From a virus (Duplodnaviria; Caudoviricetes): a DNA stretch of 42,039 bases. The translations under genes and the position numbers were made by a program. A model generated the notes under the pieces. The model did no database searches and had not been told where the DNA came from. It saw only the letters and a program-made list of their open reading frames with translations. The stretch is from positions 1 to 42,039 of IMG/VR virus record IMGVR_UViG_3300043570_000825. One strand, given 5' to 3'. This document shows positions 3,532-32,113 of this stretch, piece after piece (the first letter of the stretch is position 1; the number at the start of each line of letters is the position of its first letter).

Positions 3532-4680
3532 TTATAAGAATTTTTCCAATTCTTTTATTACCATTTCGGATGTTATTGATTTTGTACACTCAAATTGTCT
3601 ATCCGTACCTTTATGGTCTGGACACCAGTTCCAATCGGATGGGTCTAATTTAATCCTATTAAAGCATCCCTCACATTTTCCTTTAGGGGCTGCAATTCTG
3701 ATACAATCCTGCATTTCTGCCCAATCATATGAGAATCCACTAATTAATACAGTCGGAACATTTAAACTCCAACTCAACCAACTTAATCCACTACCAATAC
3801 CAATAAATGCTTTTGATTTTAACATTTCATCCATAACCAATTCCAATGGCCCGTTTGGGTGTTGAATTATTCCATTTGGTAATTTGTTTCCCATATAATC
3901 ATCACCTTCTTTTGAAAGTAATTTTACAGTATAACCTTTATTTTTTAACCAATCAACAACATCCTGCCATCCGTTTAGATTATTCCAAAATTTAGATTGT
4001 GCAGTACCAAATACACCAATACAAACTTGTTTAAGATTTGGGTCTATATATGGATTTCTTTTCTTTATTTTTGGTTTTATTTCTGTATATTCCAATCCCA
4101 AAATATCCGTACACATTTTTTGCATTGTTTGGTGCTTTGGGTCTATTGGATTTTTTAAACCATTTATAGTACCATCTTCATTATAAAATAAACCAATACT
4201 ATACATAGCATATAAATCAATAACGTTTGTACCAGGAGTTACAAATTCAATTTCTTTATAGTTTTCCTCAAACATATCATTCATAAATGTAGATGTTACT
4301 ACTTTACAATTATGTTTCTTTCTAAACTCATCCACATATGCAATCCAAGATAATGAATCACCCAATGCTCTTGAATCTAATGAAATGTAAACTTTCGTAT
4401 CTTTTGCATTGTAAATGTATTCATACCATAATTTATCATTTTCATAAATTAAAATTCTCCATTCTACAAAATATTCAATATTACACTTACACCAGCAATT
4501 ATTTCCTATTGTAGTAGAAAATTTAATTTGATTGGTTTTATTATCAATAAATTGAACTTTATATTCTGATTTTTTACTTCCTTTTATTTCTAAAAAAGCA
4601 CCTTTTACAAAATTAATGATTACTCTATTATCAATATTCACAATTGGATTTGTATTCTTTTTTAAATTATCGTATATCAT
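3532..4680 (-). CDS. Autotransporter strand-loop-strand O-heptosyltransferase-like glycosyltransferase (TibC/Aah family, GT9-related)
   Basis: SRALGDSLSW, FIGIGSGLSWLSW, VLISGFS and a C-terminal four-Cys cluster (CEGC...WCP...FECTKSIT) as in TibC. Start placed at 4680 because that ATG overlaps the upstream TGA stop (ATGA); the ORF track starts at 4689. Confidence 0.8.
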   Translation of the reverse strand: MIYDNLKKNTNPIVNIDNRVIINFVKGAFLEIKGSKKSEYKVQFIDNKTNQIKFSTTIGNNCWCKCNIEYFVEWRILIYENDKLWYEYIYNAKDTKVYISLDSRALGDSLSWIAYVDEFRKKHNCKVVTSTFMNDMFEENYKEIEFVTPGTNVIDLYAMYSIGLFYNEDGTINGLKNPIDPKHQTMQKMCTDILGLEYTEIKPKIKKRNPYIDPNLKQVCIGVFGTAQSKFWNNLNGWQDVVDWLKNKGYTVKLLSKEGDDYMGNKLPNGIIQHPNGPLELVMDEMLKSKAFIGIGSGLSWLSWSLNVPTVLISGFSYDWAEMQDCIRIAAPKGKCEGCFNRIKLDPSDWNWCPDHKGTDRQFECTKSITSEMVIKELEKFL

Positions 4681-6857
4681 GTATTCCAAGTTTTAACTGT
4701 TAAATCCAAAAGAGAATATCCTTCGGCTTGCTTACTATACATTTTGTTTGTTGTGTAACGAGGTCTTGGATTATTATAGAAAACGTGATTGAACCAAAGG
4801 TCACCTACATCCCAACCACAATCTACCAATCTATCCATCCACCATTGCTTCTCTCTATTTGGAATTAAATAACAATGTGCTAAATCCTGATTGAATGCTG
4901 TTTTTGAAAACAATTCATCAATTCTTTCTTTTTCTCTAGATGGGTTATCTGCAAATGATATGAATGGTACATTATCTCTTTCTGAGATAAAACAAGCTCT
5001 ATGTACAATTTCTACAAATTCTTCCAATCCAGTGTAGATAAATGCATCTGCTTCAAATATTAAAGTATAATCAAAGTTTTCAGTATCTATTGTTTCCAAT
5101 GCTCCCCTATGTGCTAAATAACATCCATAGTGTCTACCGGTCATCCAACCCAAACCAGCACCAGGGTATAACTCACCCGGCTTATTATCCTTACTTATAT
5201 GTTCGGGTCTCCTACAATTTTCAGCAGGTGCAAATCCTTCATACACTTGATTTACAATTGGTTGATATACCATTCCATATTTTTCCAATTGCTTAAGAGA
5301 TTGAATACTAACCATCTCTCTCATATCATCCGGTCTAGTTAATAGATGTTTTATTTGAATACGAGGTTTTTTCTTTCTCCAATTTCGGAATCCTAATGTA
5401 CATTGATTGTAAAAGAATTCATCAACTGCAGTAGTAACGCCGGGAAAAAAACTTCCACCATAATCATCACCACTAATAGTTCCGCCCGGTTTTACTTTAT
5501 TATACCAAAAATGAATATCATTTTTTACATCTTCATAACTATGCCCAGCATCTAACATTATATAATCAATACTATTGTTTGTAAATTGATTAGCTGCATT
5601 GTGTGATGTATCTTTGATTATTTCAAATTTATTATAATTGTTTGATAGAACTGTGTTATCTATGAATTCATAAAATATATCTCCATTAAATGCTCCTACA
5701 ATATTTTGGTGTAACTCCTCATCATCAGTTCCTTTAAATGTATCAATTGTTGTAAACTTAATATCTTTTTTAGATTCTTTTATTTTGTTTACTAAATAAT
5801 TTGTGGATTTTCCAAACCAAGTACCAACTTCCACAAACGTATCTCCATCTTTTGCTTCTTCAACAAATTGATTATACAATTCATCAAATGCGAACCAACC
5901 GGGAATATAATTAAATTCAGGCTTAAGTGTATCTAATATGATTTTTTTTGTTGCTTTTAAATCATCATCAATATAAGTTACCAATTGATTATTATCGTAT
6001 GTATCTAAGTATGTGTGGAGTTTTCTAAATATAGATGGAAGTTTGTAACTCAATGCTTCTTTAATTGAAAGAGGATTTAATTCCAATTTAGAACTAAAAT
6101 AAAACATATCACTTGCTGCATAAAATGTATCCACATCATCACGCTCTCCCCATATAACACAATTTTCAGGTTTATGTTTCATCAATGGTGCCCAATAGTG
6201 TTCAAAGTTTCCAGCTTGATTTCCTACGAAATGAAATTTGATTTTGTATTTTTCCAATTGAGTTGCTAATGCAAATATTTCACCTTGATTTTTACCTGGC
6301 GCAAATAATCCAACATTAAGGATATGTTTCCAATCTGATTCAAATCCTAATTCTTTTTGTGCAGATTCTTTATCAAATTTATATTCTTCGATTGGATATT
6401 CCCATAATTGAGTTTCAACTCCAGTATGTTCAAACCTTTGTCTACTCCATTCGGATACTAAAACGTATCTATCAGGATGATAATTTATTTCAGATGGATT
6501 TGTAAATGAACCATGAGTTGATGCTACAATAAAATAATTTCTATCTTTTGTAAAAATCTGGTCTAATATAAATGGAGCTAAATCAAATTGTGGTATTTCC
6601 TGAAAATGTATGATATCAGGTTTAAACTGATTTATTACATTGAGTATTTGAGATTTATCATCTCCTAATGTATGAACCTCTACTAATGATTTTATTCTAT
6701 TTTTTTGAACTACAAATGCGTTTCCGCCACTATTGTTTATTTCAACAACTTGGATATCAAAATCTTTAATAAAATGCTTTACCTGTTTATATAGGTATTG
6801 TGGTTGTCCTCCCGTAGATAAGTGAGGCGCAATATAAAGTAACTTCTTTTTAGACAT
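4677..6857 (-). CDS. Three-domain fusion: GT4 (GT-B) glycosyltransferase, class I SAM methyltransferase (Methyltransf_24-like), GT25-like glycosyltransferase
   Basis: HLSTGGQPQY, NVGLFAPGKNQ and ELNPLSIKEAL (GT4); VEVGTWFGKS, LDAGHSYE and KPGGTISGDDY (methyltransferase); GCYLAH and LIFEADA (GT25-like). Confidence 0.8.
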   Translation of the reverse strand: MSKKKLLYIAPHLSTGGQPQYLYKQVKHFIKDFDIQVVEINNSGGNAFVVQKNRIKSLVEVHTLGDDKSQILNVINQFKPDIIHFQEIPQFDLAPFILDQIFTKDRNYFIVASTHGSFTNPSEINYHPDRYVLVSEWSRQRFEHTGVETQLWEYPIEEYKFDKESAQKELGFESDWKHILNVGLFAPGKNQGEIFALATQLEKYKIKFHFVGNQAGNFEHYWAPLMKHKPENCVIWGERDDVDTFYAASDMFYFSSKLELNPLSIKEALSYKLPSIFRKLHTYLDTYDNNQLVTYIDDDLKATKKIILDTLKPEFNYIPGWFAFDELYNQFVEEAKDGDTFVEVGTWFGKSTNYLVNKIKESKKDIKFTTIDTFKGTDDEELHQNIVGAFNGDIFYEFIDNTVLSNNYNKFEIIKDTSHNAANQFTNNSIDYIMLDAGHSYEDVKNDIHFWYNKVKPGGTISGDDYGGSFFPGVTTAVDEFFYNQCTLGFRNWRKKKPRIQIKHLLTRPDDMREMVSIQSLKQLEKYGMVYQPIVNQVYEGFAPAENCRRPEHISKDNKPGELYPGAGLGWMTGRHYGCYLAHRGALETIDTENFDYTLIFEADAFIYTGLEEFVEIVHRACFISERDNVPFISFADNPSREKERIDELFSKTAFNQDLAHCYLIPNREKQWWMDRLVDCGWDVGDLWFNHVFYNNPRPRYTTNKMYSKQAEGYSLLDLTVKTWNT

Positions 6858-6873
6858 GTTTTATTAATTGTAA

Positions 6874-6905
6874 CAAATATACAAAATAATTCTTAAACTA
6901 CCAAA
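6874..6905 (-). promoter_or_regulatory. Bacteroidota sigma-A-type promoter upstream of the glycosyltransferase pair
   Basis: Minus strand reads TTTG-N20-TATATTTG, matching the -33 TTTG / -7 TAnnTTTG consensus, 16 nt upstream of the ATG at 6857. Confidence 0.8.
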
Positions 6906-6911
6906 TTTATT

Positions 6912-7196
6912 TTATTCAGCTGATTCAAAATAAACCATCCCTTCATTTAGGTCTATTTCTCCTTTTGGATATTTTACTTCTAATTCTGCTAAAATTCCTT
7001 TAACTTCTTCATTTACCACATCAAATCTACTTTCCATAGACATTTTAATTTGGTCTAGGTTTGCTAATTCATTTCTAAGTTCTCTAGTTCTTAAGCTAAT
7101 TTGACCTAATTCCATTACTAAATTAGATACTTCATCTCTTTTTTCTTTGATGCTATTCAAAACATCAGCGCTTAATGATTCTTTTAATTGTGCCAT
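6912..7196 (-). CDS. Small coiled-coil protein, paralog of 3099..3482; possible tail-fibre-associated chaperone
   Basis: Same motifs as the 127-aa ORF; lies directly downstream of the tail fibre gene. Chaperone role is inferred from position only. Confidence 0.65.
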   Translation of the reverse strand: MAQLKESLSADVLNSIKEKRDEVSNLVMELGQISLRTRELRNELANLDQIKMSMESRFDVVNEEVKGILAELEVKYPKGEIDLNEGMVYFESAE

Positions 7197-7225: not shown

Positions 7226-7232
7226 ATAGATT

Positions 7233-10200
7233 TTAAATTTTCGAACTACTTATTTCAGCTTCCAGTCTATTAACTTTTGATGATAATTCCTGTATTGCTT
7301 TAATCATAGGAGCCATAAATTCTTCATAACGTAACCCCAAATCAGAATGATTTTCTAAATCACCTTCAATATATCCAGCAAAATCATTTGTTGAAAGTCC
7401 CATGTCATCCAAAATTGTTTTTACATGCTGTGCAACCAACCCATGATGTTTTCTTATACCAGGAGTCCAAGTTACATTTGGTATTTGTTCATTTTTTATA
7501 TATTCAATAACTTCTTCTTTTACTACTACCCCATCACTATCCATAATGGCCGGTTCTTTAATTGTTTTTATATAATCCTCTATTTTTTCAGTAATAGCAC
7601 TTCCAGAAATAAATTTATATGAAACTGGTTGTAATCTATTTATAAAATCCAATCCCAATTGCGATTGTTCTATTTCTAATTTTTGGTTTGCATCTGATGT
7701 TTGTATAGTTCCAGTATTAGACCATATTTGTTTCCATTTTTGTCCAGACTTTCCTATTGTCCAATAGTTATCACTTGCTGGTAAAAAATTAGAATATGAA
7801 GTTATATACGTTTGGTCTGCCGCTGTTGCTGTACTTCTTCCACCTAAACGAAGTGATTCTTGTGTACCAGTTCCATCAAAGTAATAATCACCTAAATAAT
7901 TAGTTTTGCCATTTGAAACCAATCCACCATTCATATAGATACCAGTATTACTCAAACTTGTTGGATATCCACCAAATGCAGATACATTAATCGCACCACC
8001 AACAAATTCTGCAACTGCAGAACCCCCACCATATGCACTTGGTTCGATTCTATTAAAACGAACATAAGCATTTTGATTTGATAATACTTGAATACCACCA
8101 TTCGTTATTTCCGTTTTATTTACGTTTGGAGAAAATTGAAAAGTAATATCACCAGTTGTTGTATGATTAGAAGTTCCGGTTGTAGTATAATATGTATTTC
8201 CACCACCAACATAATTATATATAGCTGCCGATACAGCTGTAACTTTTAGTACTAATCTAAATTGATATATACCCGGTGCTGGTATTATCAGTTGACCTGC
8301 TTTAGACCCAAATGGAATATTTCCCTGATAATATGCTGTTGATGAGTATGATGAATAATTCCAATAGTATGATTCGGTATAATAAGGGAATCCGCTATAT
8401 GATACTACTGCAGTATAATAGGAATTACTTGAAGTACCACTTCTATATGTAGATGCTCCATTTATTGCAACTTCAGATATAAACGTTGTTCCAGTTGAAT
8501 TGTACATTTGTACATACCATTGGGCAGATGCATTACCCGGAGCGGCATATTCCGATTGATATGTTTCGTATCCATATTGTGGTGGGTCGGGTGGGTAATC
8601 CGAAGCTGCACTTGGTGAAGTCGTTGATATAGTTAAAGATGTTTCTGGAATATACACAATAAAATTGGTATTACCAGCTTCACTAAAGGCTAGAGTTGCA
8701 CCTGAATATGTACTGTTTGCTGATATACCAAACGAACCACTATATACTTCAGTAATTACGTTAGTAGTATTAGTAGTTCCAGATGTTGATGTTCTGTTAC
8801 CATCCGTACCATCGTATTGTGAACCACTTATATATATAATTTGTCCGCTTGGGTCAGTTAATGTTGCTTTTGGATTTAATACTACTTTAGCAGAACCAGT
8901 TGCGTTTGTGTAAAATTCTATCGATGGTGCTTGTGTATCAAATCTTAATAAAGCCCCCGATGCGATTAGCTTATTATTGGCAATAGTAAATCCACCAATC
9001 TCACCAGAATCTGCTGTTATTGTTCCATTTATATCTAATGTTCCTAAAGTATTATTCCAATAAACGTAGTTACCTTCAGTAGATGTATCTGCCCCAAATC
9101 TCATATTACCAAGAGCATCCATATAAAATCCATTACCACCACCAATACTTTGTGCACCAGCAGAACGAATAAACCCTACATCACTACCTTCCTGTCCTAT
9201 TACAAGTCCTTTTGTTACCGTTGCATTTTCAGCAAGTAATAATCCAGTTGCTACTGAACTAAATGTTGCTCCAAAAGATTGCCAATATGTTGAATAAGAT
9301 GCACCATCAATTGGTCTAGTAGCAGTACCTATTGGTGCATTTACTACATTTGGAGTGTGTGTTACTTTTGCTATGTAATATTGATTATCACTTCCCCTAA
9401 CAACATCCGTTCTATCGGTTGTTTTGAAATATTGCAAACTACCAGTCCAAGGCCCTCTATAAACAACACCAGGTCCAGCTGCTCCAGCTGCCCCATTTGC
9501 ACCACCACTACCAGCAGTTCCAGCAGTCCCAGACGTTCCAGCCGCAGCTGCTATTGCCCAAGGACCTGAACCCGGATATCCAGTTAATGCAGCTGTATCG
9601 TTTGTTGCTATATGTTGATAACTTTGTGCTTGCGCCGATGTACATCTCCAACTCTGTCCTCCGTATGAAACTATATCATTTGTATAATAAGTAAATCCAC
9701 TTGTCCATGCTCCCCTTAATGAACCTTCACTAACACCAGGTTCAACTTGTCTAATTGAACCAACAATAGTTAAAGAATCACCATCCCAAAACATTCCTTT
9801 TCCAGATGTTCCAGTTGTTTTTATTGAAAATCTACCCGTTGTACCAAATGAACCATTTTCGTATATTCCTAAAAATATTCCTGGTCTATCGTATCCAATA
9901 ATACCAGACCCAGTATTTGATGTACCAGATGTGCCGGATGTACCTATCGTTGAGTTTTGTCCAATAGCAATGTAAGGGTCAGGCCTTCCCCCAGCTAACA
10001 CAATATTTGCAAATCCGCTTGTACCATCTTTAGTACCAACGTTAATTGTATTCTTAACATATGATTCTTCAAATATTGCTAATTTAGCTGCTACAAAAAA
10101 TTGTTCACTTCCTAAAAATTCCCAATATTCATTATTACTATCAGGTGTTGGTGCTTTATAATTAATTAAATTATATCCAGCAGCTGGGGAAGCGCCTACA

Positions 10201-13200
10201 TAATAACCATCCTTACCCGGAACTATTGTTGGTTTATTATATGTGTTAGGTCCACTTCCACTAATTGCTCCGTAGTATTTTGTTGTACCAGGAACAGGAC
10301 TATAAATTACCGCATCTCTACGAGAATTACTTGTTTGGTGAGAACCTATGTAATCAGTAAGTGGTGACCATTCACCTCTCATCACTATACCAGGTCCTAC
10401 ATTACCTTCATATTGAATTGAAAGTGATTGAGTTTTAAAGAAAGTTTCTCTACCTTCACATTGTATTTGATATACAATACTTGCAACCGAATCAGTTTCA
10501 GGATTTGTCCAACTAGTTATTGCCGGCATTGTTGCTGGTGTACCACTAACCCATTGCCCTGCGGTTAAGCCACCAGCTAATCCAATAACTCCAACAGGAG
10601 ATATTGAAGAAATACTAACTCTACATTTATCCTTTGATAATCCAGTTGTACCATATGCATCAGTATCAGTAGCTGGTAATGGGTTTGTATTTACTAATTC
10701 AGTACCACCTCTATAAACTCTTATTACGTTTGAAGTTGAACCAAAATCTAATTCACCAGACACTCTATAAACTGCTGATGAATTTTCATTTTCCATCTTT
10801 ATATCATATGGAGCAGGTGGTGTAAATTGTACTGATATTGATTGAGTTACAAATTGAGTCTGTCTCGCCAATGGCCTTACCAATGTATTTGTTGATGATG
10901 AATCTCCCTCAAAATCTACTCTATATACAATTTGTCCAGATGTATTTGTAGCTGGTGCAGTCCAACTAATTATATTTCCAATTTCAGCAGGATTCGATGA
11001 TGGAAACTTTGGTGGAGTTCCTCCAGTTAATCCAATCCAAGCAGATTTTGAAAATATAGATGCGGATGAATATCCCAACACACCAATAGGGTCATTATTA
11101 AAATCCAAATCATTTGGGTCATTTGGTAATGGTAAAGGATTTGCATTTATCAATTGTTGATTACCATTAAATGTGGTAATCTTCATACCAGTTCCTGCAA
11201 ATTGAGTTGTCCATAAATCTGCGGTTATAGAAGTACTTTCATTTGATGCTACTAACTTATATGCATCAGCCCCAGCCTTCATACCAGATATTGTTAATTG
11301 AGCTTCTGCTCTATATGGATTTAATGTTGGAGATGAATACGGATTACCATCAGTCAATTTAACTTTATATGTTTTTATTGTATCAGGACCAATATCGTTA
11401 TAGTTTACATCCGGTAGTGTAAATGTTACTGGATTTGTACCACTATCTCCCTGAAATATAACTTCTCCAGATTCAGAGCCATCAGGAGCAATATCAGATA
11501 TTGTAAGAAATACTCTGTCAGCAGATGATGTTGTATTAAATGCTGTTGCAGATAATATAATTGGTGATTGTGATGCCGCCGATACTCTACCATTCCTATC
11601 ATAGTTTACCGTATACGAAGATGCTTTAAAATCAATACTACGAGCTTTTGGCGGAGTTACATTTTTTGTAAATGTTTGTGTACGAGTAAAAATAGATGAA
11701 GTTGGTAAATGCCCAGCTCCCAATGCGTAAGGATATACTTGAATTGTATAAACTGCACTTGCTGAAACATATGGATAATCAAATCTATTATAATTGATTG
11801 TTCCAGTCAATCCAGATAAAGATGAAGATGCTAATGAACCAGTTCTTATATTCCAAATACTACCACCTCTTGTTTCAATTGAATTAATTGTGTATGTACC
11901 TTTTCTAGCATCAGCATTTGCAAAAGATTCAGTTGTTACTAATTTTAAAAAATCATCTCCCTCCTTTACTTGTATAGTAGTATTTGCTGCAGAATATCCA
12001 ACCGGAGTAATGTATCCAACTTCATCTGCTGTTAATGCTACTGATGTTGGTGAGACTACTATTTGAATTGGCGGCGCTCCTTCTAATATCTTTGTATAAT
12101 TTACAACTACACTTGCCGTATAAATTGATGATGTATAGTATGGATGAATTATTAATGGATATGTTATACTTCCACTTAATTGTGTAAAGTTTGAAGATTG
12201 GGATACAATTAAAGATGCGGTATATGGTACTCCAAATGATGATGTAAAATGTACGTTACCTGCTTTAATTTCCTTTTCAATTATAGATGCAGTTGCTATA
12301 TGGAACGTACCATGTGTATCCAAATTATTAGGAACACCAGCACTAGCACTAAAAGCAAGATACCTAGAACCTTGCTTTAATTTAATATCAGTAATGGATG
12401 GTGTATAATCATTAACTATACCTCTCGAATTTGCACCAAGTGTAATTGCTATTGGACTTACTTCAAATACAATACTTTCATCTCCTTGCTTACCTTCAGG
12501 TACAATTGTAAATGTTTTATCTAAACTAACAGATGCCGATGTCCAAGGTTCAGTATATGTAAATGTTAATGTTAAGTTTTTAGTTTGATTTACTGCAGTT
12601 CTTACATTTCCGTTTACTATTTGAGATGGTATTATATTTTTATTATCATCTTTTGCAACAACTGTTATTGTTGGATTTAAACTTTGTGTATGATAATACA
12701 TCCAATATTCAGGAACCCAATCTCTATTTATTGACATTGATGGATACACCTGAAACGATGCCGTAACTGCTTCTATATCAGATGCAGCCGTTCCTCTTTT
12801 TGCAAAAGATGCAGTTGCAAATCCAAATGCTGGTTTAAATTCTGATTCTGTTCTTGGATTTATTGTGAATGAATCTGCATTATATGTTACAATACCACTA
12901 TCCAATCCATCTTGCAAATCCTCTAATATAATAGATGCTACAACCGAACCAGATGTTTCATATGCAGGTCCAGATGCTGCGGAGCCTGATGATATTATGT
13001 ATATAGTTCTTCTAAAATCAATTGAATCACGATTAAAAGTTGCGTTATAATTTATCTCACCACTTCCCAACGAACCCGTAGTTAATCCGTATATATATTT
13101 GCTAGATGATGCATATTCTAAGTTTACAAACTTCTCAGCTCCATCAGCCGAACGTGATATAATATGAAGTTGTTTATCAGGCCAACCTTTTTCGGGTTTG

Positions 13201-22778: not shown

Positions 22779-23405
22779 TTATACGGTTGCTTTGTATGTT
22801 ACGATTACAGGAATAGTTTGTGAACCTCCAGTTTCATTTCCAAACACAGTTATTGTTGTAGATACATCAATTGTTAAGTTTGGATTTGGAGTGAATCTAA
22901 ATTCTAAACCAGTAACAACTTGTGCCGTTGTTGTAATTTCATCACCTAAGAATAATGTAGTACCAGTACCACTTGCTCCTCTAGTTACAGTTATTGTACC
23001 AGCTCTTTGGTCTGCTAATACCATTGTATATCCAGCATTTTGATTTCCAGCAGGAGATGTTGTTGGAGATAATCCTACACCACCTTCATATTGATTAACA
23101 CTAATAGAAGGTACACCCAATCTAACAACAGGAATTTGAGTTGTTCCTTTTGGTAGAGTTACTAACTTATATCTTAATACTTGAGTTTCATCAGGTGAAG
23201 CTTCCGTAATAGGAATAGCTCTGATTGCTGAATCATAGTATGCAGAACCTTTTGGATGCGCTGGTTCGTAAAGCGTATAATCAATCTCATCATCACCCAA
23301 AGCAAACTTTGTAATGTTTAATGATTGACCCGATGCTAATTTTTGTCTTCCTTTTTTGGTAAGAATTGCATCTACTGTAATTTCTGTGTTATCTAAATAT
23401 GCCAT
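22779..23405 (-). CDS. Virion structural protein with tail-collar-like (DUF3751-like) N-terminus
   Basis: AILTKKGRQKLA...ITKFALGD matches the LTxxGxxxLA...ITxxAxGD pattern of P2 gpH-type N-termini. Confidence 0.6.
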   Translation of the reverse strand: MAYLDNTEITVDAILTKKGRQKLASGQSLNITKFALGDDEIDYTLYEPAHPKGSAYYDSAIRAIPITEASPDETQVLRYKLVTLPKGTTQIPVVRLGVPSISVNQYEGGVGLSPTTSPAGNQNAGYTMVLADQRAGTITVTRGASGTGTTLFLGDEITTTAQVVTGLEFRFTPNPNLTIDVSTTITVFGNETGGSQTIPVIVTYKATV

Positions 23406-23458: not shown

Positions 23459-26400
23459 TTAATCTACTTCAAGTATTGGTTCACCACTACCTCTACCAGT
23501 CTTAGCCACTCTAAGAATGTTAGGATTAGTTGTAAATGTTTCAACCGGGTCTAAACCATCTGGTGTAGTTGTTGAATTTTGAACAGAACCTTTCCAAAAT
23601 GAACGTTTCATACCCTCACCTAAATTATTCTTGTATATATAGTGTGTTGGGAAATATCCATTCAACGAAGTTACCTCAACAATATCATTACCAATACTAA
23701 CACTACCACTAAATGGTAATACAGATACTTTGTATTTGTATTTGGTTACTGGAATTTTTTCGTATTTAACTTGTCCATATGGTGTTGCTGGGTATCCTTC
23801 CGTTTGTGTGTTTATTTTTTGAGTATATTGTTGCTTTACTAAGAATATACTTTTTCTACTTCCTGTTTCTTGGTAATTACCAAATAAAGGGTCATAACTT
23901 CTAACGATACCAGTACCATTATTAGCGTATAAACCATAACCAGCATTAGCAAGAGAATCTCTGTCCATACCAACTTCAGTAAACGTAAATGAATCAGCTT
24001 CACCCACCAAACTTGCACCAGTAGGACATTGTATTTCTAAATCGTAAAATGGTGCACTACCTTCTAATAAAACTCCATCATTTGCATCAATAATACTATT
24101 GTAAGATGGATTTGTTCCTTCTAATTGTATAACATCATTTGCATCCACTACTCCAGTATTGTTACTAACATCTCCAGATAGATTTGTTATTTCGGATGCA
24201 TCCAATGTAGCATCTTTTGGTATAGATTCTGCATCTAATAATACATCTTTGTTTGTATCAAGAGACGTTTCAAAATCATTTCTCAATGATTGTGGTTTAT
24301 CCCAACGAGTTTTATTTCTTTCTAAATAGTGTGGTTCAATTAACAATCCTTTAGATATGTTTGTTCTAACAGGAGCTAAATCAGAAAGTACTTCAAACAA
24401 TGATTTATCTATGTATCTTATTAATCTAATATATTCGTAGATATCTCTGTTATCCAATCTCTCAAAGTAGTAATGTCTTAAAGTATCTAATTGTTTATAG
24501 TTACTTCTATATTCATCACCATAATCTCCAATATAGTTATCAATATTAAAATCACCAAATGCTTTTAAGATATCCATATTCAACTCCTTAATTGGAGAGA
24601 AGAATAATCCCAAACGATTTGAATCTATTGGAGCTCTATCAAATGATTTTTGAGTTGCTCTAGTTTTATAAGAAAGGTCACCTATTAAAGTTTGTTCTTC
24701 AAAACGAATCTTATTAGAAACATTAAATCCTAAAGATGGAACATTTGCTGTTACAGTTCTATCATATGGAATGTATTGATATGGATATGTTGGAGCTGAA
24801 TAAAAATTACTAGCAGTTGCAAATCCAGTATCACCAACATATGATGTATCTATTGAAACGTTTTTAATGAATGGGTCTAATACTCTATCTTTTGGATATT
24901 CAAAATCCAAACGGAATATCAAATCTTTAGTTGATGAATCAAAATCATTTCCATTGATTGCGTCTGGGAATAGTGTATGGTTTTCAAATTTACTTCTTTG
25001 TAAAGGTACAGTCCATAAACGGAACTCATCTAAATTACCAGAATATCCATTACCACCAACCTCAATATAATTGCCATCTTCCCATTGTGAATCATCCGTT
25101 AATATAGACATACTCACAAATGCAGTTTGTCTAGTACCATTTGAAGTACCCAACCAAACCTCATATAAAGATGTTGCCCCACCATAATTGTATCTATTGA
25201 TTGCAACATTTGAATAATTTTCAATAGATAGTGGAAATCCTAAACTTCCTGTTTTTAAATCAGGACCATAAGCGTATGGATAGTTACTAGCCGTATCGAA
25301 ATAATATGTTGATACAGATGCACTTATAAATGGTTCATTAACATAAGTACTTGTAGATGAATCGCCACCAAAATTTAATTCTAATTTAGCAAAAGAACCA
25401 GTGGTTTGTACTAAATCTAAATTCCATTGGCTTGCTGATATTAATCTTTGTGGTGTTGATGTAATAGATGCAGGTAATATCCTAAACTCAATACAATTAG
25501 GATAATCTCCAGTTTTTGTTTGTTTCCAATCAACTCGTACTGATGAATCAGTATCCAATACAATTGCTGCTGTTCTATCATCAAACGTAAATTTACTAAC
25601 CCCACCTCTAGTTGGATCTTGAGGTCCACCAAATTCCATTATAGTCAACATAGATTGTGGTACACCATAACAAGCCATTACAGCTTTAAGTGCTCTAGCA
25701 GTACCCTTATGTTTTAATAGATATGGTAAGTTATTTAAGATTCTTCTCCACACTTCATAGTTTGCATCTTGCAAGCTTCTTCCATATTTTTGATATCCAT
25801 CTTGCGTTGTACCAAACATATATTCCCAAAGTAATTGAGAATTAAATGCTCTTTTTTCAGTCCAACCCATTGAATTTAACATAGAACTAACTAATGAATC
25901 AGGAACTCCCAATTCTTCTTTATGTTCTACGTTTTTAGATTTTTTTATTCCATTTATATAGACCCATAGAATATCAAAATGCTGGCCAATCATATCTAAG
26001 AATAAAATAAAATCAGCGTTATCGTAATCTTCGGTTATATAAGCTGGAAGATTATTACGCATTGCATATGAATTATACTTATCAAATTCTTCTGAATCAG
26101 CCAATGCAGTTTCATACCAACTAACAACCAATGGACTTGTAATAGGTCTTAAAATTCTATAAGTTAATTGGGTTGTTGGATTAAAATAATCTTCCTTTGG
26201 ATATGCTAATGTATTTTCTGATTTAAATAAGAATTTTTCAAATCCATCAAATGTTTTTATTAAATTACTTATTTTTTCAGCAATTCCATTTGCTTCAATT
26301 AATGCATATGGTGCAGGAATTACTTGAGGTACTTCAAATTGTAATTGTAAAATTGGGTCTATTTGTTCACCAATTAATATTTCATTACCTTCAATTTCAG

Positions 26401-28717
26401 GAGTACCATCTCCGCCAGTATCTTCAGTTAATAAATAACCGATTGGAAATGTTGTTTGTGTTAAACTTAAATATTTTGATTGATACTCTTGTAATATATT
26501 TATTTTATAATAAAAGTTTTTCAATCTTTCAGCACCAGAGCCAAAGTGTACAAATTGGTCAAATGTATATGAAGAACCACTAACATACTGAATATTTAAT
26601 TTTTCAGTATCAATATTATTTTGAGATGTTATCTTATTTAAGATATCATTTGATGTAGTAGACCCACTTGCTATTAAATCATCAAATATTTTAAAAGCAG
26701 TTCCGTTATCAGGATCTAATAAAAAATTAGGTCCTTTTAGTGGTGCACAATAGCTTGTATCAACACCACTAATTGTTATAGTTTCAACTATTGGGTCAGC
26801 TTGTAATTTAGAAATCCAAACTTGTTGATTTGGTTGTACAGTTGTTTCTAATGGTTCGTATAATTTTAATATAAGTGAATCATTATCACCAGTCCAAGTT
26901 GTAATTACTTTATTATCACCATTACCAATATGTAATAAGTGTGTTAAATATTTTGATGTTTCATCTGCAAAAATACCTTTATCAAATTGTGCAATAAATC
27001 CTTCTGCAATTCTACTAATAGCAACATCTCTAGGAATAGTTAAATCACCTTTATCAAATTGAATTGTGATTATTTCTTTTTTACCAATTACAGTCTGTCT
27101 TCCACTTACGTTATATGGAACTAATATTAATTGTAAATTAATTATATCTTGGTCTTCTGAAACATTAGTCCCAGCATTTATTAATAATTGTTTAAAATTA
27201 AATGTATGCGTTCCATTTTTTGGTAGTTGTGCAAAATTAGAATTACTACTACCAGCATACACCTTAACATAATCAGTATCAATTGAATCAAATGATATTT
27301 TAAAATCAACATCAGTACCTACATAATCAGGTCCTCTTAATACAGAAGGATATTGTATATTTCTAATATCAGGAACACCAACCCATATATCATCAACAGC
27401 TACTAATGATGTTTCTATTAAATCACCATCACCATCTGCGTTTGTTGGAACTAATTTTATTGTATATTTTCCAATTACATCAAATGTTTTTGATGGTATT
27501 ATTATTATGCTAGTTTCACCACTAACATTAAATTCATATTTTTTATCCTTTACATATGCAGTTACTTTTGTAGTATTTCCAAAAAGATTCAATCCAATTG
27601 GAACTGCTGCATCTGAATTAATATTATATTGTGTAAAGTCTTGAGATGCTAATTGTGCTGGATTTGAGAAACTTATTACAGGAACCGTAGCTTGTATTAT
27701 TGCAAAATTTTCACTAGTAATACTAATATTTAAATTTCTATCAAAATTTACAAGTGTAGATATACTTTCTAAAGCGGAAGTTGCTTCTAATGTTTGTGTT
27801 TTTATACCATCACCACTAACTACTATTTTAGTAATTCTATATGAACTTATATTAGTTGTTTGTATTGAATATGATAGTTCAGAATCTGCACTATCTTCAA
27901 TTTCAGTAACTCCATTAGTTAAAGTTAATGTTTCAACTCCAGCTAATTCTTTTTTATTTTTTATAAAAGTAACAGAATTATTTGGCCCATCTATTGCTAC
28001 ATTTAATTTAATTTTTGGAACAACTGGGTCAGTTGGGTTTTGCTCATCTGGTATAGCTACATTTTGTTGTAATGTAAACTCAATAGATTTATCTTGAGAA
28101 TCTACATCATAACTAAAATCATTTTGAAGTACATCTCCTAAAAATTTTCTTACTCTAAATGTGTATGCTGGCGTTGTTGAATAAACGCTTTTATAAGTGT
28201 CAGGATCATATGTATATAAATTATTAGTATCAGATGTATAATTTGGAAGACCCCTAGTACTATAAGCTACTAAACTATCATATGGGTTTATGTTTAAAGC
28301 TATGTATGGTACATAATATTTTGGATTTTCTACAACATCTATTATGAATTTTTCATTTGATGAATATCCTTCTTTTTGTACAGTAATAGTTTTAGCTCCA
28401 TTAGTCAATAAATCACTTAGAGAAACTGAAAGTCCGTAGCTCGTAGTTTGATATATTGGCGTATCGTTTACATAAATACTTGATTCAGTATTCGATTTAA
28501 TGTAAAGTATATTTTTATTATCAGTATTAGCTACATTTGGCGTATCTACAATTGGTATAAATCCGGCAGTACTTCCTCCACCGCCACCATATGAAATACC
28601 AACACCAGACCCACCACCTACACCAACACCCCTTTCAGTATCAAGCGCATTTAGTTGCTGAGATTCACTTACCCCAAAGCCACTATCAAAAATATTTTCA
28701 TCGTTTGCTACTGCCAT
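23459..28717 (-). CDS. Large baseplate wedge-like protein (gp7/P2 gpI-like segment plus LamG-like domain), 1752 aa
   Basis: LDMIGQHFD...LPYLLKHKGTARALKAVMACYG (KGT motif of gpI/gp7-type wedge proteins); YSGNLDEFRLW (LamG-like ending). Confidence 0.6.
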   Translation of the reverse strand: MAVANDENIFDSGFGVSESQQLNALDTERGVGVGGGSGVGISYGGGGGSTAGFIPIVDTPNVANTDNKNILYIKSNTESSIYVNDTPIYQTTSYGLSVSLSDLLTNGAKTITVQKEGYSSNEKFIIDVVENPKYYVPYIALNINPYDSLVAYSTRGLPNYTSDTNNLYTYDPDTYKSVYSTTPAYTFRVRKFLGDVLQNDFSYDVDSQDKSIEFTLQQNVAIPDEQNPTDPVVPKIKLNVAIDGPNNSVTFIKNKKELAGVETLTLTNGVTEIEDSADSELSYSIQTTNISSYRITKIVVSGDGIKTQTLEATSALESISTLVNFDRNLNISITSENFAIIQATVPVISFSNPAQLASQDFTQYNINSDAAVPIGLNLFGNTTKVTAYVKDKKYEFNVSGETSIIIIPSKTFDVIGKYTIKLVPTNADGDGDLIETSLVAVDDIWVGVPDIRNIQYPSVLRGPDYVGTDVDFKISFDSIDTDYVKVYAGSSNSNFAQLPKNGTHTFNFKQLLINAGTNVSEDQDIINLQLILVPYNVSGRQTVIGKKEIITIQFDKGDLTIPRDVAISRIAEGFIAQFDKGIFADETSKYLTHLLHIGNGDNKVITTWTGDNDSLILKLYEPLETTVQPNQQVWISKLQADPIVETITISGVDTSYCAPLKGPNFLLDPDNGTAFKIFDDLIASGSTTSNDILNKITSQNNIDTEKLNIQYVSGSSYTFDQFVHFGSGAERLKNFYYKINILQEYQSKYLSLTQTTFPIGYLLTEDTGGDGTPEIEGNEILIGEQIDPILQLQFEVPQVIPAPYALIEANGIAEKISNLIKTFDGFEKFLFKSENTLAYPKEDYFNPTTQLTYRILRPITSPLVVSWYETALADSEEFDKYNSYAMRNNLPAYITEDYDNADFILFLDMIGQHFDILWVYINGIKKSKNVEHKEELGVPDSLVSSMLNSMGWTEKRAFNSQLLWEYMFGTTQDGYQKYGRSLQDANYEVWRRILNNLPYLLKHKGTARALKAVMACYGVPQSMLTIMEFGGPQDPTRGGVSKFTFDDRTAAIVLDTDSSVRVDWKQTKTGDYPNCIEFRILPASITSTPQRLISASQWNLDLVQTTGSFAKLELNFGGDSSTSTYVNEPFISASVSTYYFDTASNYPYAYGPDLKTGSLGFPLSIENYSNVAINRYNYGGATSLYEVWLGTSNGTRQTAFVSMSILTDDSQWEDGNYIEVGGNGYSGNLDEFRLWTVPLQRSKFENHTLFPDAINGNDFDSSTKDLIFRLDFEYPKDRVLDPFIKNVSIDTSYVGDTGFATASNFYSAPTYPYQYIPYDRTVTANVPSLGFNVSNKIRFEEQTLIGDLSYKTRATQKSFDRAPIDSNRLGLFFSPIKELNMDILKAFGDFNIDNYIGDYGDEYRSNYKQLDTLRHYYFERLDNRDIYEYIRLIRYIDKSLFEVLSDLAPVRTNISKGLLIEPHYLERNKTRWDKPQSLRNDFETSLDTNKDVLLDAESIPKDATLDASEITNLSGDVSNNTGVVDANDVIQLEGTNPSYNSIIDANDGVLLEGSAPFYDLEIQCPTGASLVGEADSFTFTEVGMDRDSLANAGYGLYANNGTGIVRSYDPLFGNYQETGSRKSIFLVKQQYTQKINTQTEGYPATPYGQVKYEKIPVTKYKYKVSVLPFSGSVSIGNDIVEVTSLNGYFPTHYIYKNNLGEGMKRSFWKGSVQNSTTTPDGLDPVETFTTNPNILRVAKTGRGSGEPILEVD

Positions 28718-28727: not shown

Positions 28728-28736
28728 TATAAGTAT
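28728..28736 (-). promoter_or_regulatory. Candidate late promoter motif ATACTTATA
   Basis: 10 nt upstream of ATG 28717. Confidence 0.6.
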
Positions 28737-28743
28737 TTTTATA

Positions 28744-29994
28744 TTATTGAAATTCGATTCGTTCTCTACCCATACCACCATCTGCCAAATTCTGTCTATC
28801 CAATGTATCGTATTCTCGATAGATGCTACCACCTCCGCCGCCTCCACCACCGCTTGATGGTGGTACATATGGTGGTTCTTCTATTGGTGTAACTATTTCA
28901 ATTGGAGCCGGTGAAGGTTCTACTTTAATTTTTTCTGGTGGAGTTGGAGTTGGAATTTGTTTTTTAATTTCTTCTTCCAACTTCAACTCCATACTAGTCA
29001 ATATTGGTTTTATTACTTCTGCCATTTGTAGTACAGGACTACTTGTATCTATTGTATTATTAGAATCAATTCTTTGTAATACTTTACCAACAATATCAAC
29101 ACTATCATCCAATCCAGCATCATAAGTAGCTTCTTTCTTAACATCAGGTTTTGATAGATAAAAATCAATACACATAATTAATATCCTTTTACAAATACTT
29201 TCTATTTCATTTACTGATAATTCTATTACGGGTCTTTCGGTTTTTGGTTTACCATATTTAACATCTCTAATATCAGATATTCTATTTGTAAATTCATAAA
29301 AAGATGCTTCAACAAATTTTTCAAATACTCTAGTTGAAAATGTATCAAAATCTTTTATTTTAAATTCAGAAACCATTTTATCTAACCACTTAGTTGAATA
29401 CTTTGATTTTAAAAAATTATCAATTACAGTTGGATTTACTTTCTCAATAAAATTAAATGCTAAATTTATAGTATCATCTCTGAATTCACCATTGTTTATA
29501 AATAAATCAAATCGTTTTTTAAGTTCTGGATTTAATTGTAATCCTTTTTTTAATGGTAATAATCTAACCTCTGTACGTGATGGTGATATTTCTGCTATCC
29601 ACAAACTATCCGCCGGAGCTTCACTACCTACTCTTTTGTTAAGTAATGTTATTTGTGTTTTAAATATACCATTATCATATCCAGCTTCTCTTAAAAGTCT
29701 TTCAACATCTATAAAATATTCAGTTGGAAATTGATTTTTCTTAAGTACAGTTCCTTCAGCTATTAAAAAATAATCTTTAATATTTGCAGTTGTTATTGGA
29801 ACATATCTAACTAATTCATCATTTATTTGTGGTAATTGATTATCGTTTAAGTCATATACAATAAACTCAATAGCATCTTTTTCACCAAATCCAAAGAAGG
29901 ACTCGAGGTTACCTTCTTCAAATATTTTTCTATCGTTTGAAGATATTCTATACCCCTGATTATTTAATATTTCCTTAAATGTTTTTATTGCCAT
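28744..29994 (-). CDS. Hypothetical structural protein with Pro-rich and poly-Gly C-terminal tail
   Basis: 416-aa ORF in the baseplate operon; start overlaps the upstream gene by 10 nt. Confidence 0.55.
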   Translation of the reverse strand: MAIKTFKEILNNQGYRISSNDRKIFEEGNLESFFGFGEKDAIEFIVYDLNDNQLPQINDELVRYVPITTANIKDYFLIAEGTVLKKNQFPTEYFIDVERLLREAGYDNGIFKTQITLLNKRVGSEAPADSLWIAEISPSRTEVRLLPLKKGLQLNPELKKRFDLFINNGEFRDDTINLAFNFIEKVNPTVIDNFLKSKYSTKWLDKMVSEFKIKDFDTFSTRVFEKFVEASFYEFTNRISDIRDVKYGKPKTERPVIELSVNEIESICKRILIMCIDFYLSKPDVKKEATYDAGLDDSVDIVGKVLQRIDSNNTIDTSSPVLQMAEVIKPILTSMELKLEEEIKKQIPTPTPPEKIKVEPSPAPIEIVTPIEEPPYVPPSSGGGGGGGGSIYREYDTLDRQNLADGGMGRERIEFQ

Positions 29995-31040
29995 GACAAC
30001 TTATTTCTTTTACTCATTTGCTTATCATATACATAGTAACAATATTGTTTTCCTACACTATGAATAAGTTTACCTATCCAATTATCTTTTGGCAATGTAC
30101 CCACTTCATAAGCCATATGCTCAGTCCAAGGTTTTACCATCATATAAATCCACTTAGTATTTTGTGGTTTAGCTTTCATATACTTAACTACATTTCTAGC
30201 CCACATCATATATCCTAATACCAAACGAGGGTCTTTCTCATACATCATCTCACCATAAATTTCATCGGCGTTCCAAATGTGTTGAGGTAAGTAACCCTGA
30301 TTGTATAATTCGTTACAAATAATTTTCTTCTTCTTAGTAGTTGCGTTTGTAAGTTGTTGATTAGCTGCAATCAATTGTGTTTGGTTAGCATTCAATTGAG
30401 TGTTTATCTGATTTATTGTTTGATTAAGATTTACTATCTGCGCTTGTGCCGATGTAAGTTGCTCACCCAATAATGCGTTCTCTTGTAATAAAGAAGTATT
30501 TCTTGCACTCAAAGAAACTCTTTGAATAGATTCTGCAGTTGCTTTTTGTATTGAATTTTGTAAACTACCAATACTACTTTCTATTTTTGAATTTGCTTGT
30601 AGTGTTTGATTTTGAGATACGGCTAAAAGTAAATCTTTAGAATCCATTTCCACCAAAAGACTTTGAGTTGTTATTTCCAATTCTTTAACTTTTGATGCTA
30701 AATTAAGAGTAACACTATTTAATCTTTCAACTTGTAATGTTAAATCTGCTATTAATTGGTTGGCTTGATTATAAGATGTAAGTAATATAGTTGGCGGTAA
30801 CTCCGGTGCTTCCACTGGTATCAATTCAACTATATTTGTATCTATTGATTTTATAACCTCAACCTCATTATATTTTGGTTTTGTTAATTTACCAGAAACT
30901 ATACCATCATCCGCAACAGACCCACTAAATACATGGACACCAAATTCATTTTTAGTTTTGATTGCTAATGAACCACTAACTAAAAGCTCTGATATCATGC
31001 CTTCATTTCGTAAACCCGTCTTTATTAATCTTTTTATCAT
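29985..31040 (-). CDS. Coiled-coil protein with a distinct C-terminal KIIC-type helical domain
   Basis: Long Q/N/L heptad region followed abruptly by KKKKIICNELY...GYMMWARNVV, an aromatic and Met-rich domain. Confidence 0.55.
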   Translation of the reverse strand: MIKRLIKTGLRNEGMISELLVSGSLAIKTKNEFGVHVFSGSVADDGIVSGKLTKPKYNEVEVIKSIDTNIVELIPVEAPELPPTILLTSYNQANQLIADLTLQVERLNSVTLNLASKVKELEITTQSLLVEMDSKDLLLAVSQNQTLQANSKIESSIGSLQNSIQKATAESIQRVSLSARNTSLLQENALLGEQLTSAQAQIVNLNQTINQINTQLNANQTQLIAANQQLTNATTKKKKIICNELYNQGYLPQHIWNADEIYGEMMYEKDPRLVLGYMMWARNVVKYMKAKPQNTKWIYMMVKPWTEHMAYEVGTLPKDNWIGKLIHSVGKQYCYYVYDKQMSKRNKLSWQ

Positions 31041-31042
31041 TT

Positions 31043-32113
31043 CTAGTTCTTTGCTATACTAAATGTTATATTATCATCAAAATATTGTGAACCACCATCT
31101 TTCTCAACCATAAATTCTATTTTATAAACTCTACCAGCTTCCCAATTGGAAAGATTGAGTTTTATATAGTTACCATCAGCATCACAACTTATTTTAGAAT
31201 AGTTACCAAATGGAATTATAATATCATTAGATGCAAAATCTCTTATCTGATAGTATGTAGTTTGTGGCAAATACTTTTGAGTGTTGTATGCAAATTGATT
31301 TGAAAAAGTTTTCAATGGATACAATTCTCTACCAAATATTCTTATTTTAGGAATACTATTTAGTTTGTATTCTTTTTTCAAATTGTTAATACCAATTTTA
31401 ATATCTTCTGCAGTTAATGCTGCTAATGAACCAGTTATATAAGATTGGTCATCCCAACCTATTCTAATCTTTGGTTGATATATAGTGTGTGTTTCTTTAC
31501 TAAAGAATTTAATTACACCATAATCTTCTGTATTGGATTCCACATCAGTTGCGTATTTTAAAATAAACCCATCGTTTGGTATAGAACCACTCATCCAAGA
31601 TTTTAAAATAGATTTCACATCCATATTAATATCAGATGTTTCATAATTAAATGATTGAGATGCTTCGTATTGTGTCCACCAAGTTCCACCACCACCATTA
31701 TTCACACTAGCAGTTGTATTTGTTGCGAAGTTATTTTGCAACCATTCTAAGTTAGTATCACCTTCTCTATAATTCCAAGTTACACCCTGCGTTGATATAT
31801 TATCAAAACGAGTACCAGTACCCATTTGCCAACTACCAGATAGTGCATTTGCATATATTGTATATTCTAATGGAATTTCATTTGTTTCAGTCTCTCTTAA
31901 AATTAAAGTTGCATCATTAAATCCAATACTATTATCTGATATTGATTTTGATATGTATCCTACTTCAAATTTTACCAAAGCATGAGATACATCTTTTATG
32001 TTCCCATAATATATTTTACTTATTTCTATAATTTCATCAAGCCCAGTATTTTGATTGGGTTGTTGAAGATAAAGCGTTGCATCTTTTGATGCTGTTAAAA
32101 AGTAGTATCCCAT
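31043..32113 (-). CDS. DNRLRE/CBM96-like domain virion protein
   Basis: KDATLY...PNQNTG, ALVKF, TWN, NDGFILK, FFSKE and PKIRI pattern typical of DNRLRE domains; TAATG coupling to the gp6-like gene. Confidence 0.55.
   Translation of the reverse strand: MGYYFLTASKDATLYLQQPNQNTGLDEIIEISKIYYGNIKDVSHALVKFEVGYISKSISDNSIGFNDATLILRETETNEIPLEYTIYANALSGSWQMGTGTRFDNISTQGVTWNYREGDTNLEWLQNNFATNTTASVNNGGGGTWWTQYEASQSFNYETSDINMDVKSILKSWMSGSIPNDGFILKYATDVESNTEDYGVIKFFSKETHTIYQPKIRIGWDDQSYITGSLAALTAEDIKIGINNLKKEYKLNSIPKIRIFGRELYPLKTFSNQFAYNTQKYLPQTTYYQIRDFASNDIIIPFGNYSKISCDADGNYIKLNLSNWEAGRVYKIEFMVEKDGGSQYFDDNITFSIAKN

What the first reader, a model, noticed from the sequence alone, without database searches (positions are those of the whole stretch)
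3532..32113. Candidate virion O-glycosylation system: [S/T]-[G/A]-S motif enriched in tail proteins and not seen in the enzymes
Seen: by eye I count about 28 TGS/SGS/TAS/SAS tripeptides in the 2702-aa fibre (WTGSV, LTGSF, LSGSK, YTASF, ATASF, TSASV, ISGSQ and others), about 9 in the 1752-aa protein, 5 each in the 404-aa and 356-aa proteins, 3 in the 297-aa and 2 in the 351-aa protein. Most are flanked by hydrophobic residues as in strand-turn-strand elements. I found none in Mre11-Rad50, the two glycosyltransferases or the 1005-aa protein. A rough composition-based expectation for the fibre is about 10. Inference: this is an acceptor sequon for the adjacent strand-loop-strand transferase, giving a glycan-coated tail. 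This is my top candidate for an undescribed system.
Basis: partly seen in the sequence, partly recalled or inferred. Interest (0 to 1): 0.85.

Follow-up and report, generated by a model that had tools for sequence, protein, structure and literature searches.

The report
Serine tag on phage outer shell
The outward-facing capsid, sheath, baseplate and fibre proteins of this uncultured phage family carry the tripeptide Ser/Thr-Gly/Ala-Ser about three to seven times more often than chance, and it likely marks where a conserved pair of phage sugar-transferases, not the neighbouring TibC-like enzyme, would attach a sugar coat, although no sugar has been observed.

Summary
The motif is real: 29 sites against 9.3 expected in the 2702-aa fibre, and the top-ranked of 722,000 comparable patterns. 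It runs through the whole RM378/immuto-like T4-type lineage. It is enriched about 3-7x in outer virion proteins and not in tube, portal, hub, gp6 or enzymes. 75 of 79 sheath sites fall in the region aligned to T4's exposed sheath domains. The adjacent 385-aa enzyme is a true TibC relative but is not needed: immuto, RM378, G031, G032 and 12 marine records keep the motif without it. TibC instead tracks collagen-like Gly-Ser/Thr-Ser runs (5 of 6 vs 0 of 13). What tracks the motif is a tandem GT4-like pair outside this window (gene 2 follows gene 1 in 123 of 124 and 69 of 69 loci). Records lacking the full pair show 0.4-1.6x. Best reading: an O-glycosylation signal read by that pair (0.55). No chemistry, and lineage confounds the correlation. 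The scan noted this motif and pair before on other DNA. A second phage lineage uses a different tag, [S/T]-[G/A]-x-T.

The parts
7233..15341 (-). 2702-aa tail fibre/spike with C-terminal S74 chaperone-like domain; 29 [ST][GA]S sites, 18 of them in residues 568-1195 (nt 11757-13640)
   Evidence: orthologues 196 vs 56.6 in 9 genomes
23459..28717 (-). 1752-aa baseplate-region protein, 10 sites
   Evidence: orthologues 121 vs 28.6 in 11 genomes; 58 site columns among 24 dereplicated homologues
21544..22758 (-). 404-aa baseplate-region protein, 5 sites (residues 77, 85, 126, 199, 230)
   Evidence: AF2 model pLDDT 60 puts 199 and 230 at strand ends and 126 in a loop; no PDB fold match
31043..32113 (-). 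356-aa DNRLRE-domain protein next to gp6, 5 sites
   Evidence: orthologues 50 vs 7.4
20580..21473 (-). 297-aa baseplate-region protein, 3 sites
   Evidence: orthologues 50 vs 7.7
29985..31040 (-). 351-aa coiled-coil protein, 2 sites (not significant alone)
22779..23405 (-). 208-aa baseplate-region protein, Thr-rich but motif-free: internal negative control
   Evidence: 0 vs 5.1 expected over 11 orthologues
32113..34149 (-). gp6-like baseplate wedge, 1 site: not enriched
   Evidence: 5 vs 8.6 over 9 orthologues
3532..4689 (-). Aah/TibC-family glycosyltransferase (385 aa); accessory, not required for the motif; likely serves collagen-like Gly-Ser/Thr-Ser runs
   Evidence: TIGR04414 270 bits, cut-off 200; D111, K233, C339, C342, C356, C368 match TibC D110, K230 and the four iron-finger Cys; distribution
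4677..6857 (-). 726-aa GT4 + methyltransferase + GT25-like fusion, travels with the TibC-like gene; not the core pair
9468..9944 (-). two short collagen-like Gly-X-Y stretches in the fibre (residues 1800-1808 and 1935-1958), candidate TibC-type acceptors

Best explanation
[S/T]-[G/A]-S is a lineage-wide signal written only on exposed virion surfaces, and it is likely the acceptor site for O-glycosylation by a conserved tandem pair of phage GT4-like transferases that lies outside this window. Shown: the excess, its restriction to outer proteins and exposed domains, its independence from TibC, and its co-occurrence with the pair. Inferred: gene 1 (~460 aa) and gene 2 (~430 aa) bind the motif as an extended peptide (small middle residue G>A>S,Q; Pro at +3 cut to 0.12x; hydrophobic flanks) in the cytoplasm before or during assembly, and put the first sugar(s) on it from a nucleotide sugar. 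The first Ser/Thr is my guess for the acceptor, with the strict +2 Ser as a recognition hydroxyl, by analogy with N-X-S/T only. The variable genes behind the pair (GT2s, epimerases, aminotransferases, methyltransferases) would extend the glycan in strain-specific ways. The window's own genome is inferred to carry the pair because its two nearest complete relatives do. The TibC-like enzyme and its GT4-methyltransferase neighbour are likely a second, optional module for collagen-like Gly-Ser/Thr-Ser runs.
For: Outer vs inner proteins over 8-14 orthologues each: MCP 44/14.0, sheath 79/27.1, neck 30/7.7, 356-aa 50/7.4, 1752-aa 121/28.6, 404-aa 60/15.3, 297-aa 50/7.7, fibre 196/56.6; tube 1/1.6, hub 0/2.9, tape measure 9/15.2, portal 1/3.4, scaffold 1/3.7, gp6 5/8.6, gp25 0/1.0, TerL 1/5.9, PolB 0/4.7. 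Within proteins: 75 of 79 sheath sites align to T4 gp18 83-365, the solvent-exposed fragment (PMC3004832, passages), 3.2x over local composition, vs 4/6.1 outside; 42 of 44 MCP sites align to gp23 135-235, the I-domain linker/I-domain region that forms surface protrusions (PMC9546572, passages; the 235 boundary was chosen after seeing the sites). The same motif sits in unrelated folds and turns over in position (17 columns in the 404-aa family, 58 in the 1752-aa family). The pair's gene 1 is one of 12 RM378 proteins shared with at least 3 of 4 relatives; gene 2 follows it in 123 of 124 and 69 of 69 loci. Gene 1 folds as a GT4-like GT-B enzyme (pLDDT 93) with invariant E304/E312; best match is chlorovirus B736L (Z 31.3, rmsd 3.0, 369 aligned; tied with sucrose-phosphate synthase Z 31.1). 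Records without the full pair: T4 structural region 0.37x, G020 1.13x once TGST/SGST overlap is removed, LR756501 and LR756504 41-kb stretches 1.16x and 1.23x, LR756511 head region 1.0x, P-SSM2 fibre regions 1.62x and 1.35x, LR756508 (gene 1 only) 1.37x with its 297- and 356-aa orthologues at 0 sites. In a second lineage, on a long sheath branch, gene 1 is 57% identical to G003's and nests among lineage 1 (AU p 0.039); there the pair and motif-bearing fibres share one island in G022 that is replaced in G020.
Against: No sugar, mass shift or activity is shown. The pair is not in the window and the window's genome is not held. Pair and motif are largely one lineage's traits: the 404-aa protein and gene 1 hit the same 7 of 50,697 phage records, so the correlation has few independent points. 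Many positive genomes were found through gene 1 itself; only G002, G003, immuto, Mel-JY01, RM378 and LR756508 were found without it (gene 1 in 6 of 6, gene 2 in 5 of 6); G004 and G005 (70%, 62% complete) lack a hit. Ser/Gly/Thr-rich fibres have a generic 1.3-1.6x background (P-SSM2; single proteins up to 2.2x), which covers the whole-genome ratios of G012 (1.63) and G022 (1.25); lineage-2 support rests on a few fibres that are physically linked to the pair. LR756508 lacks gene 2 yet is still significantly enriched (p 7e-6) and keeps 3 sites in its 404-aa orthologue. Some sites are strongly conserved in place (SGS at 126 in 23 of 26), as structural turns would be. Contigs G009 and G007:C2 carry the pair and show no overall excess (0.67x, 1.15x), though they lack the baseplate block and their sheaths have 4 and 6 sites. 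The fold does not reveal the acceptor.
Confidence: 0.55

Rival explanations
1. One reading: the motif is the acceptor of the adjacent TibC-like heptosyltransferase.
For: The enzyme is a true family member with catalytic and iron-finger residues, lies 2.5 kb from the fibre gene, and is present in G002, G003, G004, G005, Mel-JY01, G029, G033.
Against: Absent from immuto, RM378, G030, G031, G032 and 12 of 12 marine records, 8 of them at least 90% complete, where the motif, wherever counted (not G030), is 2.0-4.4x. Present in LR756501, whose 41-kb TibC region has 5 vs 9.6 [ST][GA]S[^T]. [quoted passage not shown] TibC tracks collagen-like runs instead (5 of 6 vs 0 of 13, Fisher p 5e-4 without correction for kinship).
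Confidence: 0.05
2. The motif is purely structural: a favoured strand-end turn or small-residue packing unit in surface beta-domains, inherited in this lineage.
For: Hydrophobic flanks and strand-end positions; fixed sites in orthologues; generic 1.3-1.6x excess in P-SSM2 fibres; in spikes it forms part of beta-repeat units.
Confidence: 0.15
3. The motif is a modification signal, but the reader is a host enzyme or another phage enzyme (other GT, kinase, methyltransferase), and the pair does something else such as DNA or LPS glycosylation.
For: The pair sits beside replication genes; these genomes hold many other GTs; fold gives no acceptor clue.
Against: The motif holds across phages with different stated hosts (Flavobacterium, Rhodothermus, Microcystis) and a gut contig; the recalled Bacteroidota sequon D-[ST]-[AILVMT] and N-X-[ST] are flat (46/45, 138/131 in the window). 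No other GT family is shared with RM378. Immuto is annotated with a dpdA/7-deazaguanine DNA pathway and no hydroxymethylase is named.
Confidence: 0.18
4. The motif is a docking site for a non-covalent decoration protein or chaperone rather than a covalent mark.
For: Surface restriction fits a binding partner equally well.
Against: Two required hydroxyls and up to 270 sites per protein suit an enzyme better; no conserved candidate binder emerged among the 12 core proteins.
Confidence: 0.07

Closest known systems
Virion glycosylation of mycobacteriophages by phage-encoded glycosyltransferases (Freeman et al. 2023; seen only through passages in PMC12619734 and PMC11256854; the paper itself is not held)
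   Same: Phage-encoded GTs, cytoplasmic modification of virion proteins, a proposed glycan shield.
   Different: There the glycans are at the C-termini of capsid and tail tube. Here the candidate sites are internal, many per protein, defined by a tripeptide, spread over capsid, sheath, baseplate and fibres, and absent from the tube.
BAHT family, TibC/Aah (TIGR04414; PMC4358343 and PMC8151025, passages)
   Same: The window's 385-aa protein passes the family cut-off and keeps the catalytic Asp, Lys and four iron-finger Cys.
   Different: No autotransporter substrate; donor untested; its distribution follows collagen-like runs, not the dispersed motif.
GtfA/GtfB of serine-rich repeat adhesins (arrangement and acceptor recalled; structure 4pqg)
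   Same: Tandem pair of GT-B-fold enzymes proposed to modify Ser/Thr of surface proteins in the cytoplasm.
   Different: Gene 1 is a plain GT4-like fold (Z 31 to B736L vs 18.5 to GtfA); sites are dispersed tripeptides in folded domains, not dipeptide repeats; complex formation untested.
Chlorovirus-encoded capsid glycosylation (PMC7019647, passages); B736L, PDB 3oy2
   Same: Virus-encoded cytoplasmic glycosylation of capsid proteins; B736L is the nearest solved relative of gene 1 by sequence and fold.
   Different: N-linked on Asn outside a canonical sequon, in an algal virus; B736L is listed only as a putative GT.
Immutovirus, Rhodothermus phage RM378, Mel-JY01, and moraphages (PMC12619734, passages and part 1 of section 11)
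   Same: Immuto, RM378 and Mel-JY01 share the baseplate block and the GT pair. Moraphages are 200-307-kb, mostly freshwater, with four core GT groups.
   Different: In what I saw, that paper names DNA, serotype or virion as possible GT targets and no acceptor motif. Whether the window's phage is a moraphage was not tested.

Membership tests
BAHT (Aah/TibC), for the 385-aa protein | TIGR04414 above curated cut-off | tested here: met
   270 bits vs 200
BAHT (Aah/TibC), for the 385-aa protein | catalytic Asp110, Lys230 and four iron-finger Cys | tested here: met
   D111, K233, C339, C342, C356, C368
BAHT (Aah/TibC), for the 385-aa protein | ADP-heptose donor and dodecameric ring | not testable with these tools
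   needs biochemistry
BAHT system, for the motif | acceptor co-occurs with the BAHT gene | tested here: not met
   motif 2.0-4.4x in TibC-free genomes
Mycobacteriophage-type virion glycosylation | phage-encoded glycosyltransferases | tested here: met
   two in the window; core pair and clusters in relatives
Mycobacteriophage-type virion glycosylation | acceptors at C-termini of capsid and tail tube | tested here: not met
   sites are internal; tube 1 vs 1.6; 42 of 44 MCP sites in gp23-equivalent 135-235
Mycobacteriophage-type virion glycosylation | glycans detected on virions | not testable with these tools
   needs mass spectrometry
GtfA/GtfB-like pair | tandem pair of GT-B-fold genes | tested here: met
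   123 of 124 and 69 of 69 loci; gene 1 model; gene 2 hits PHROG 2170
GtfA/GtfB-like pair | closer in structure to GtfA than to general GT4 | tested here: inconclusive
   4pqg Z 18.5, rmsd 3.3, 339 aligned, rank 49, vs 3oy2 Z 31.3
GtfA/GtfB-like pair | the two proteins form a complex | not tested
Bacteroidota host O-glycosylation (sequon recalled) | D-[ST]-[AILVMT] enrichment | tested here: not met
   46 vs 45 in the window; 0.93-1.28x in the motif-rich lineage-1 records
Phage DNA glucosyltransferases, for the pair | fold closest to T4 alpha-glucosyltransferase type; hydroxymethylase context | tested here: inconclusive
   1y6f Z 18.5, rmsd 4.8, 342 aligned; 9iqz Z 19.2; no hydroxymethylase named in immuto annotation

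The most novel reading that the evidence does not exclude
Large T4-like Bacteroidota phages write a sequence code on every exposed virion surface and read it with their own sequon-specific O-glycosyltransferases, giving a full glycan shell of thousands of sites. The code has lineage dialects ([S/T]-[G/A]-S for the GT4 pair, [S/T]-[G/A]-x-T in a sister lineage, collagen-like Gly-Ser/Thr-Ser for TibC), and enzyme-plus-tagged-fibre cassettes move between lineages.
Probability: 0.4. Interest if true: 0.9.

Novelty: new variant of a known kind. Interest (0 to 1): 0.7.

Why it matters
If true, it would be the first defined sequon for phage virion glycosylation and would make glycosylated sites predictable from sequence in an abundant aquatic and gut lineage (at least 7,999 gene-1 relatives at E<=1e-10). 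It is directly testable, because cultured members exist (immuto, RM378, Mel-JY01). A cytoplasmic O-glycosyltransferase pair with a three-residue tag would also be a useful glyco-engineering tool. I found no description in print (open-access PMC and bioRxiv only; supplements not read).

Tried and rejected
Chance or post-hoc pattern choice: rejected (rank 1 of 722,000; local shuffles). DNA or protein repeat: rejected; the excess also holds after removing (Gxx)4+ runs. Host D-[ST] or N-X-[ST] sequons: flat. ESM Atlas on fibre residues 540-1250 gave only unnamed clusters. A prediction of the gene 1/gene 2 complex was not available. Ser codon-family mixing: motif serines mix less (8 of 25 first, 6 of 33 third positions) than other conserved Ser columns (128 of 278); this shows constraint but does not separate structure from signal. 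The GTDB scan found gene 1 on 12 MAG contigs only; the three I examined at length (G006, G007, G012) carry phage structural genes. A crAssphage control record was not held. The careful sheath tree did not finish; the quick tree was used.


Full report
Setting. The window is a 42-kb, all-minus-strand piece of a T4-like myovirus: gp25 and gp6 baseplate genes, several unnamed baseplate-region proteins, primase, a fused SbcD-SbcC, a 2702-aa fibre, two glycosyltransferases and a cytidylyltransferase-like protein. Its own genome is not held. Cultured relatives are Flavobacterium phage immuto, Mel-JY01 and Rhodothermus phage RM378. IMG/VR holds at least 527 relatives of the 404-aa protein, including complete 274- and 253-kb records G002 and G003.

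Observation. All but the last beat per-protein shuffles at p<0.005 and survive local shuffles. Over the ten tail ORFs the motif occurs 55 times against 16.6, first among 722,000 patterns of that form, and reorderings of the same residues are not enriched. It is not a repeat. Over 621 unique lineage contexts the rule is [S/T]-[G>A>Q,S]-S. Thr at +2 is barely tolerated (1.4x), flanks are hydrophobic, and Pro at +3 falls to 0.12x.

Where it sits. Across 8-14 orthologues per gene, the excess is 2.9-6.8x in MCP, sheath, one neck protein, four window baseplate/fibre proteins and the 297-aa protein. It is at or below expectation in tube, hub, tape measure, portal, protease, scaffold, gp6, gp25, the 208-aa protein and the enzymes. 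Within the sheath, 75 of 79 sites align to T4 gp18 residues 83-365, described as solvent-exposed (PMC3004832, passages). Within the MCP, 42 of 44 align to gp23 135-235, the region of the I-domain linker and surface I-domain (PMC9546572, passages; I set the 235 limit after seeing the data). T4's own sheath and MCP have 1 and 0. Some sites are fixed and others come and go: 17 site columns in 26 dereplicated 404-aa homologues, 58 in 24 homologues of the 1752-aa protein, 24 of them singletons.

The 385-aa protein is a real Aah/TibC member (270 bits vs cut-off 200; catalytic Asp, Lys and four Cys kept). But immuto and RM378 lack it and show 178 vs 88 and 81 vs 37. G031 and G032, 100% complete, lack it and show 2.6x and 2.8x, with 23 and 18 sites in the fibre's orthologues. 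Twelve marine records lack it and show 161 vs 37 in 3.5-kb baseplate loci. TibC instead goes with (G[STA][ST])4+ runs: 5 of 6 TibC-positive records (two seen only as 41-kb stretches) against 0 of 13 negative ones, several incomplete. G033 and G032 were fetched after I had the idea and behaved as predicted. The window's fibre has two short runs of this kind.

What does track it. Among 12 RM378 proteins shared with at least 3 of 4 relatives is one glycosyltransferase, gene 1 of a tandem pair (RM378 p013-p014, immuto gp181-gp180). Gene 2 follows gene 1 in 123 of 124 loci with room and 69 of 69 in a divergent group. A variable sugar cluster follows the pair. Gene 1 models confidently as a GT4-like GT-B enzyme; its nearest structure is chlorovirus B736L, tied with other GT4s, so the fold says nothing on the acceptor. 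In GTDB it appeared only on 12 MAG contigs. Records without the full pair give 0.37x (T4), 1.0x (LR756511 head), 1.13x (G020), 1.16x and 1.23x (LR756501, LR756504 stretches), 1.35x and 1.62x (P-SSM2 fibre regions) and 1.37x (LR756508, gene 1 only).

A second lineage. G012, G018, G020 and G022 are about 30% identical to G003 in sheath and sit on a long branch, while gene 1 of G012 and G022 is 57% identical and nests in lineage 1 (AU p 0.039). In G022 the pair and the motif-bearing fibres share a 58-kb island. In G020 the same slot holds a 12-kb island of other GTs, with no pair and no [ST][GA]S-rich protein. The core structural proteins of G020 and G022 carry another tag, [S/T]-[G/A]-x-T (G020 191 vs 102, G022 265 vs 148, LR756501 stretch 31 vs 9.7; 10 and 9 proteins individually enriched). 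This favours a signal over a fold preference. It is weaker than it looks: the fibres are linked to the pair, and their 1.7-3.3x partly overlaps the P-SSM2 background.

Limits. No chemistry. The pair is inferred, not seen, in this phage. Most positive genomes belong to one lineage, and many were found through gene 1. LR756508 keeps a weak excess without gene 2. A structural or other-enzyme reading stays open.

Known work. Phage-encoded virion glycosylation is known from mycobacteriophages, at C-termini of capsid and tube (seen only as passages in PMC12619734 and PMC11256854). BAHTs read a structural motif (PMC8151025, passages). My literature searches found no phage sequon; supplements were not read and subscription papers are not covered. 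Earlier notes of this scan report the same motif and pair, and the TibC-collagen link, on other DNA. I had reached both readings before seeing those notes and tested them here; they are not independent evidence.

Verdict. Observation confirmed; interpretation partly supported (signal likely, enzyme wrong). New variant of a known kind; best explanation 0.55; interest 0.7.

Noticed in passing
G020 (L449-L463), G022 (L464-L479), L141: A second tag, [S/T]-[G/A]-x-T, is strongly enriched in sheath and baseplate proteins of a sister lineage (e.g. 22 vs 1.9 in a 1414-aa protein); its enzyme is unidentified. Candidates are conserved GT2s at G020 41555-41842 and 164368-165822.
   Followed up: partly
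G022 107-165 kb vs G020 153.7-165.8 kb: A swappable island between glutaredoxin and a conserved 120-130-aa gene holds either the GT4 pair plus tagged fibres or a different GT set.
   Followed up: partly
window 35159-36256 and 36268-37566: Two tandem M15 peptidase genes, 87% identical over about 315 aa, with acidic N-terminal extensions: a recent duplication.
   Followed up: no
window 3099-3482 and 6912-7196: Two small paralogous coiled-coil ORFs (37% identical over 86 aa) flank the TibC-like and GT4-methyltransferase genes; possible adaptors of that module.
   Followed up: no
window 15596-18739: SbcD and SbcC (Mre11-Rad50) fused in one 1047-aa ORF; split in LR756508.
   Followed up: no
window 50-3067 and 40231-41046: A 1005-aa cytidylyltransferase-like fusion conserved in the lineage, and a weak C45 autoproteolytic hydrolase-like gene.
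   Followed up: no
Mel-JY01 83441-84932 (L089): Gene 1 of the pair is in two ORFs (190 + 302 aa) while the motif is still 2.2x; its stated host is Microcystis although its cultured relatives infect Flavobacterium and Rhodothermus.
   Followed up: no
G007:C5 6661-8244 (L319): A phage contig in a Bacteroidales MAG has 6 motif sites in its major capsid protein and 77 vs 24 over the contig; the pair is on another contig of the same bin.
   Followed up: partly
G020 107949-124364: A 5472-aa protein made largely of Pro-Thr repeats, another likely glycosylation target in the pair-less genome.
   Followed up: no
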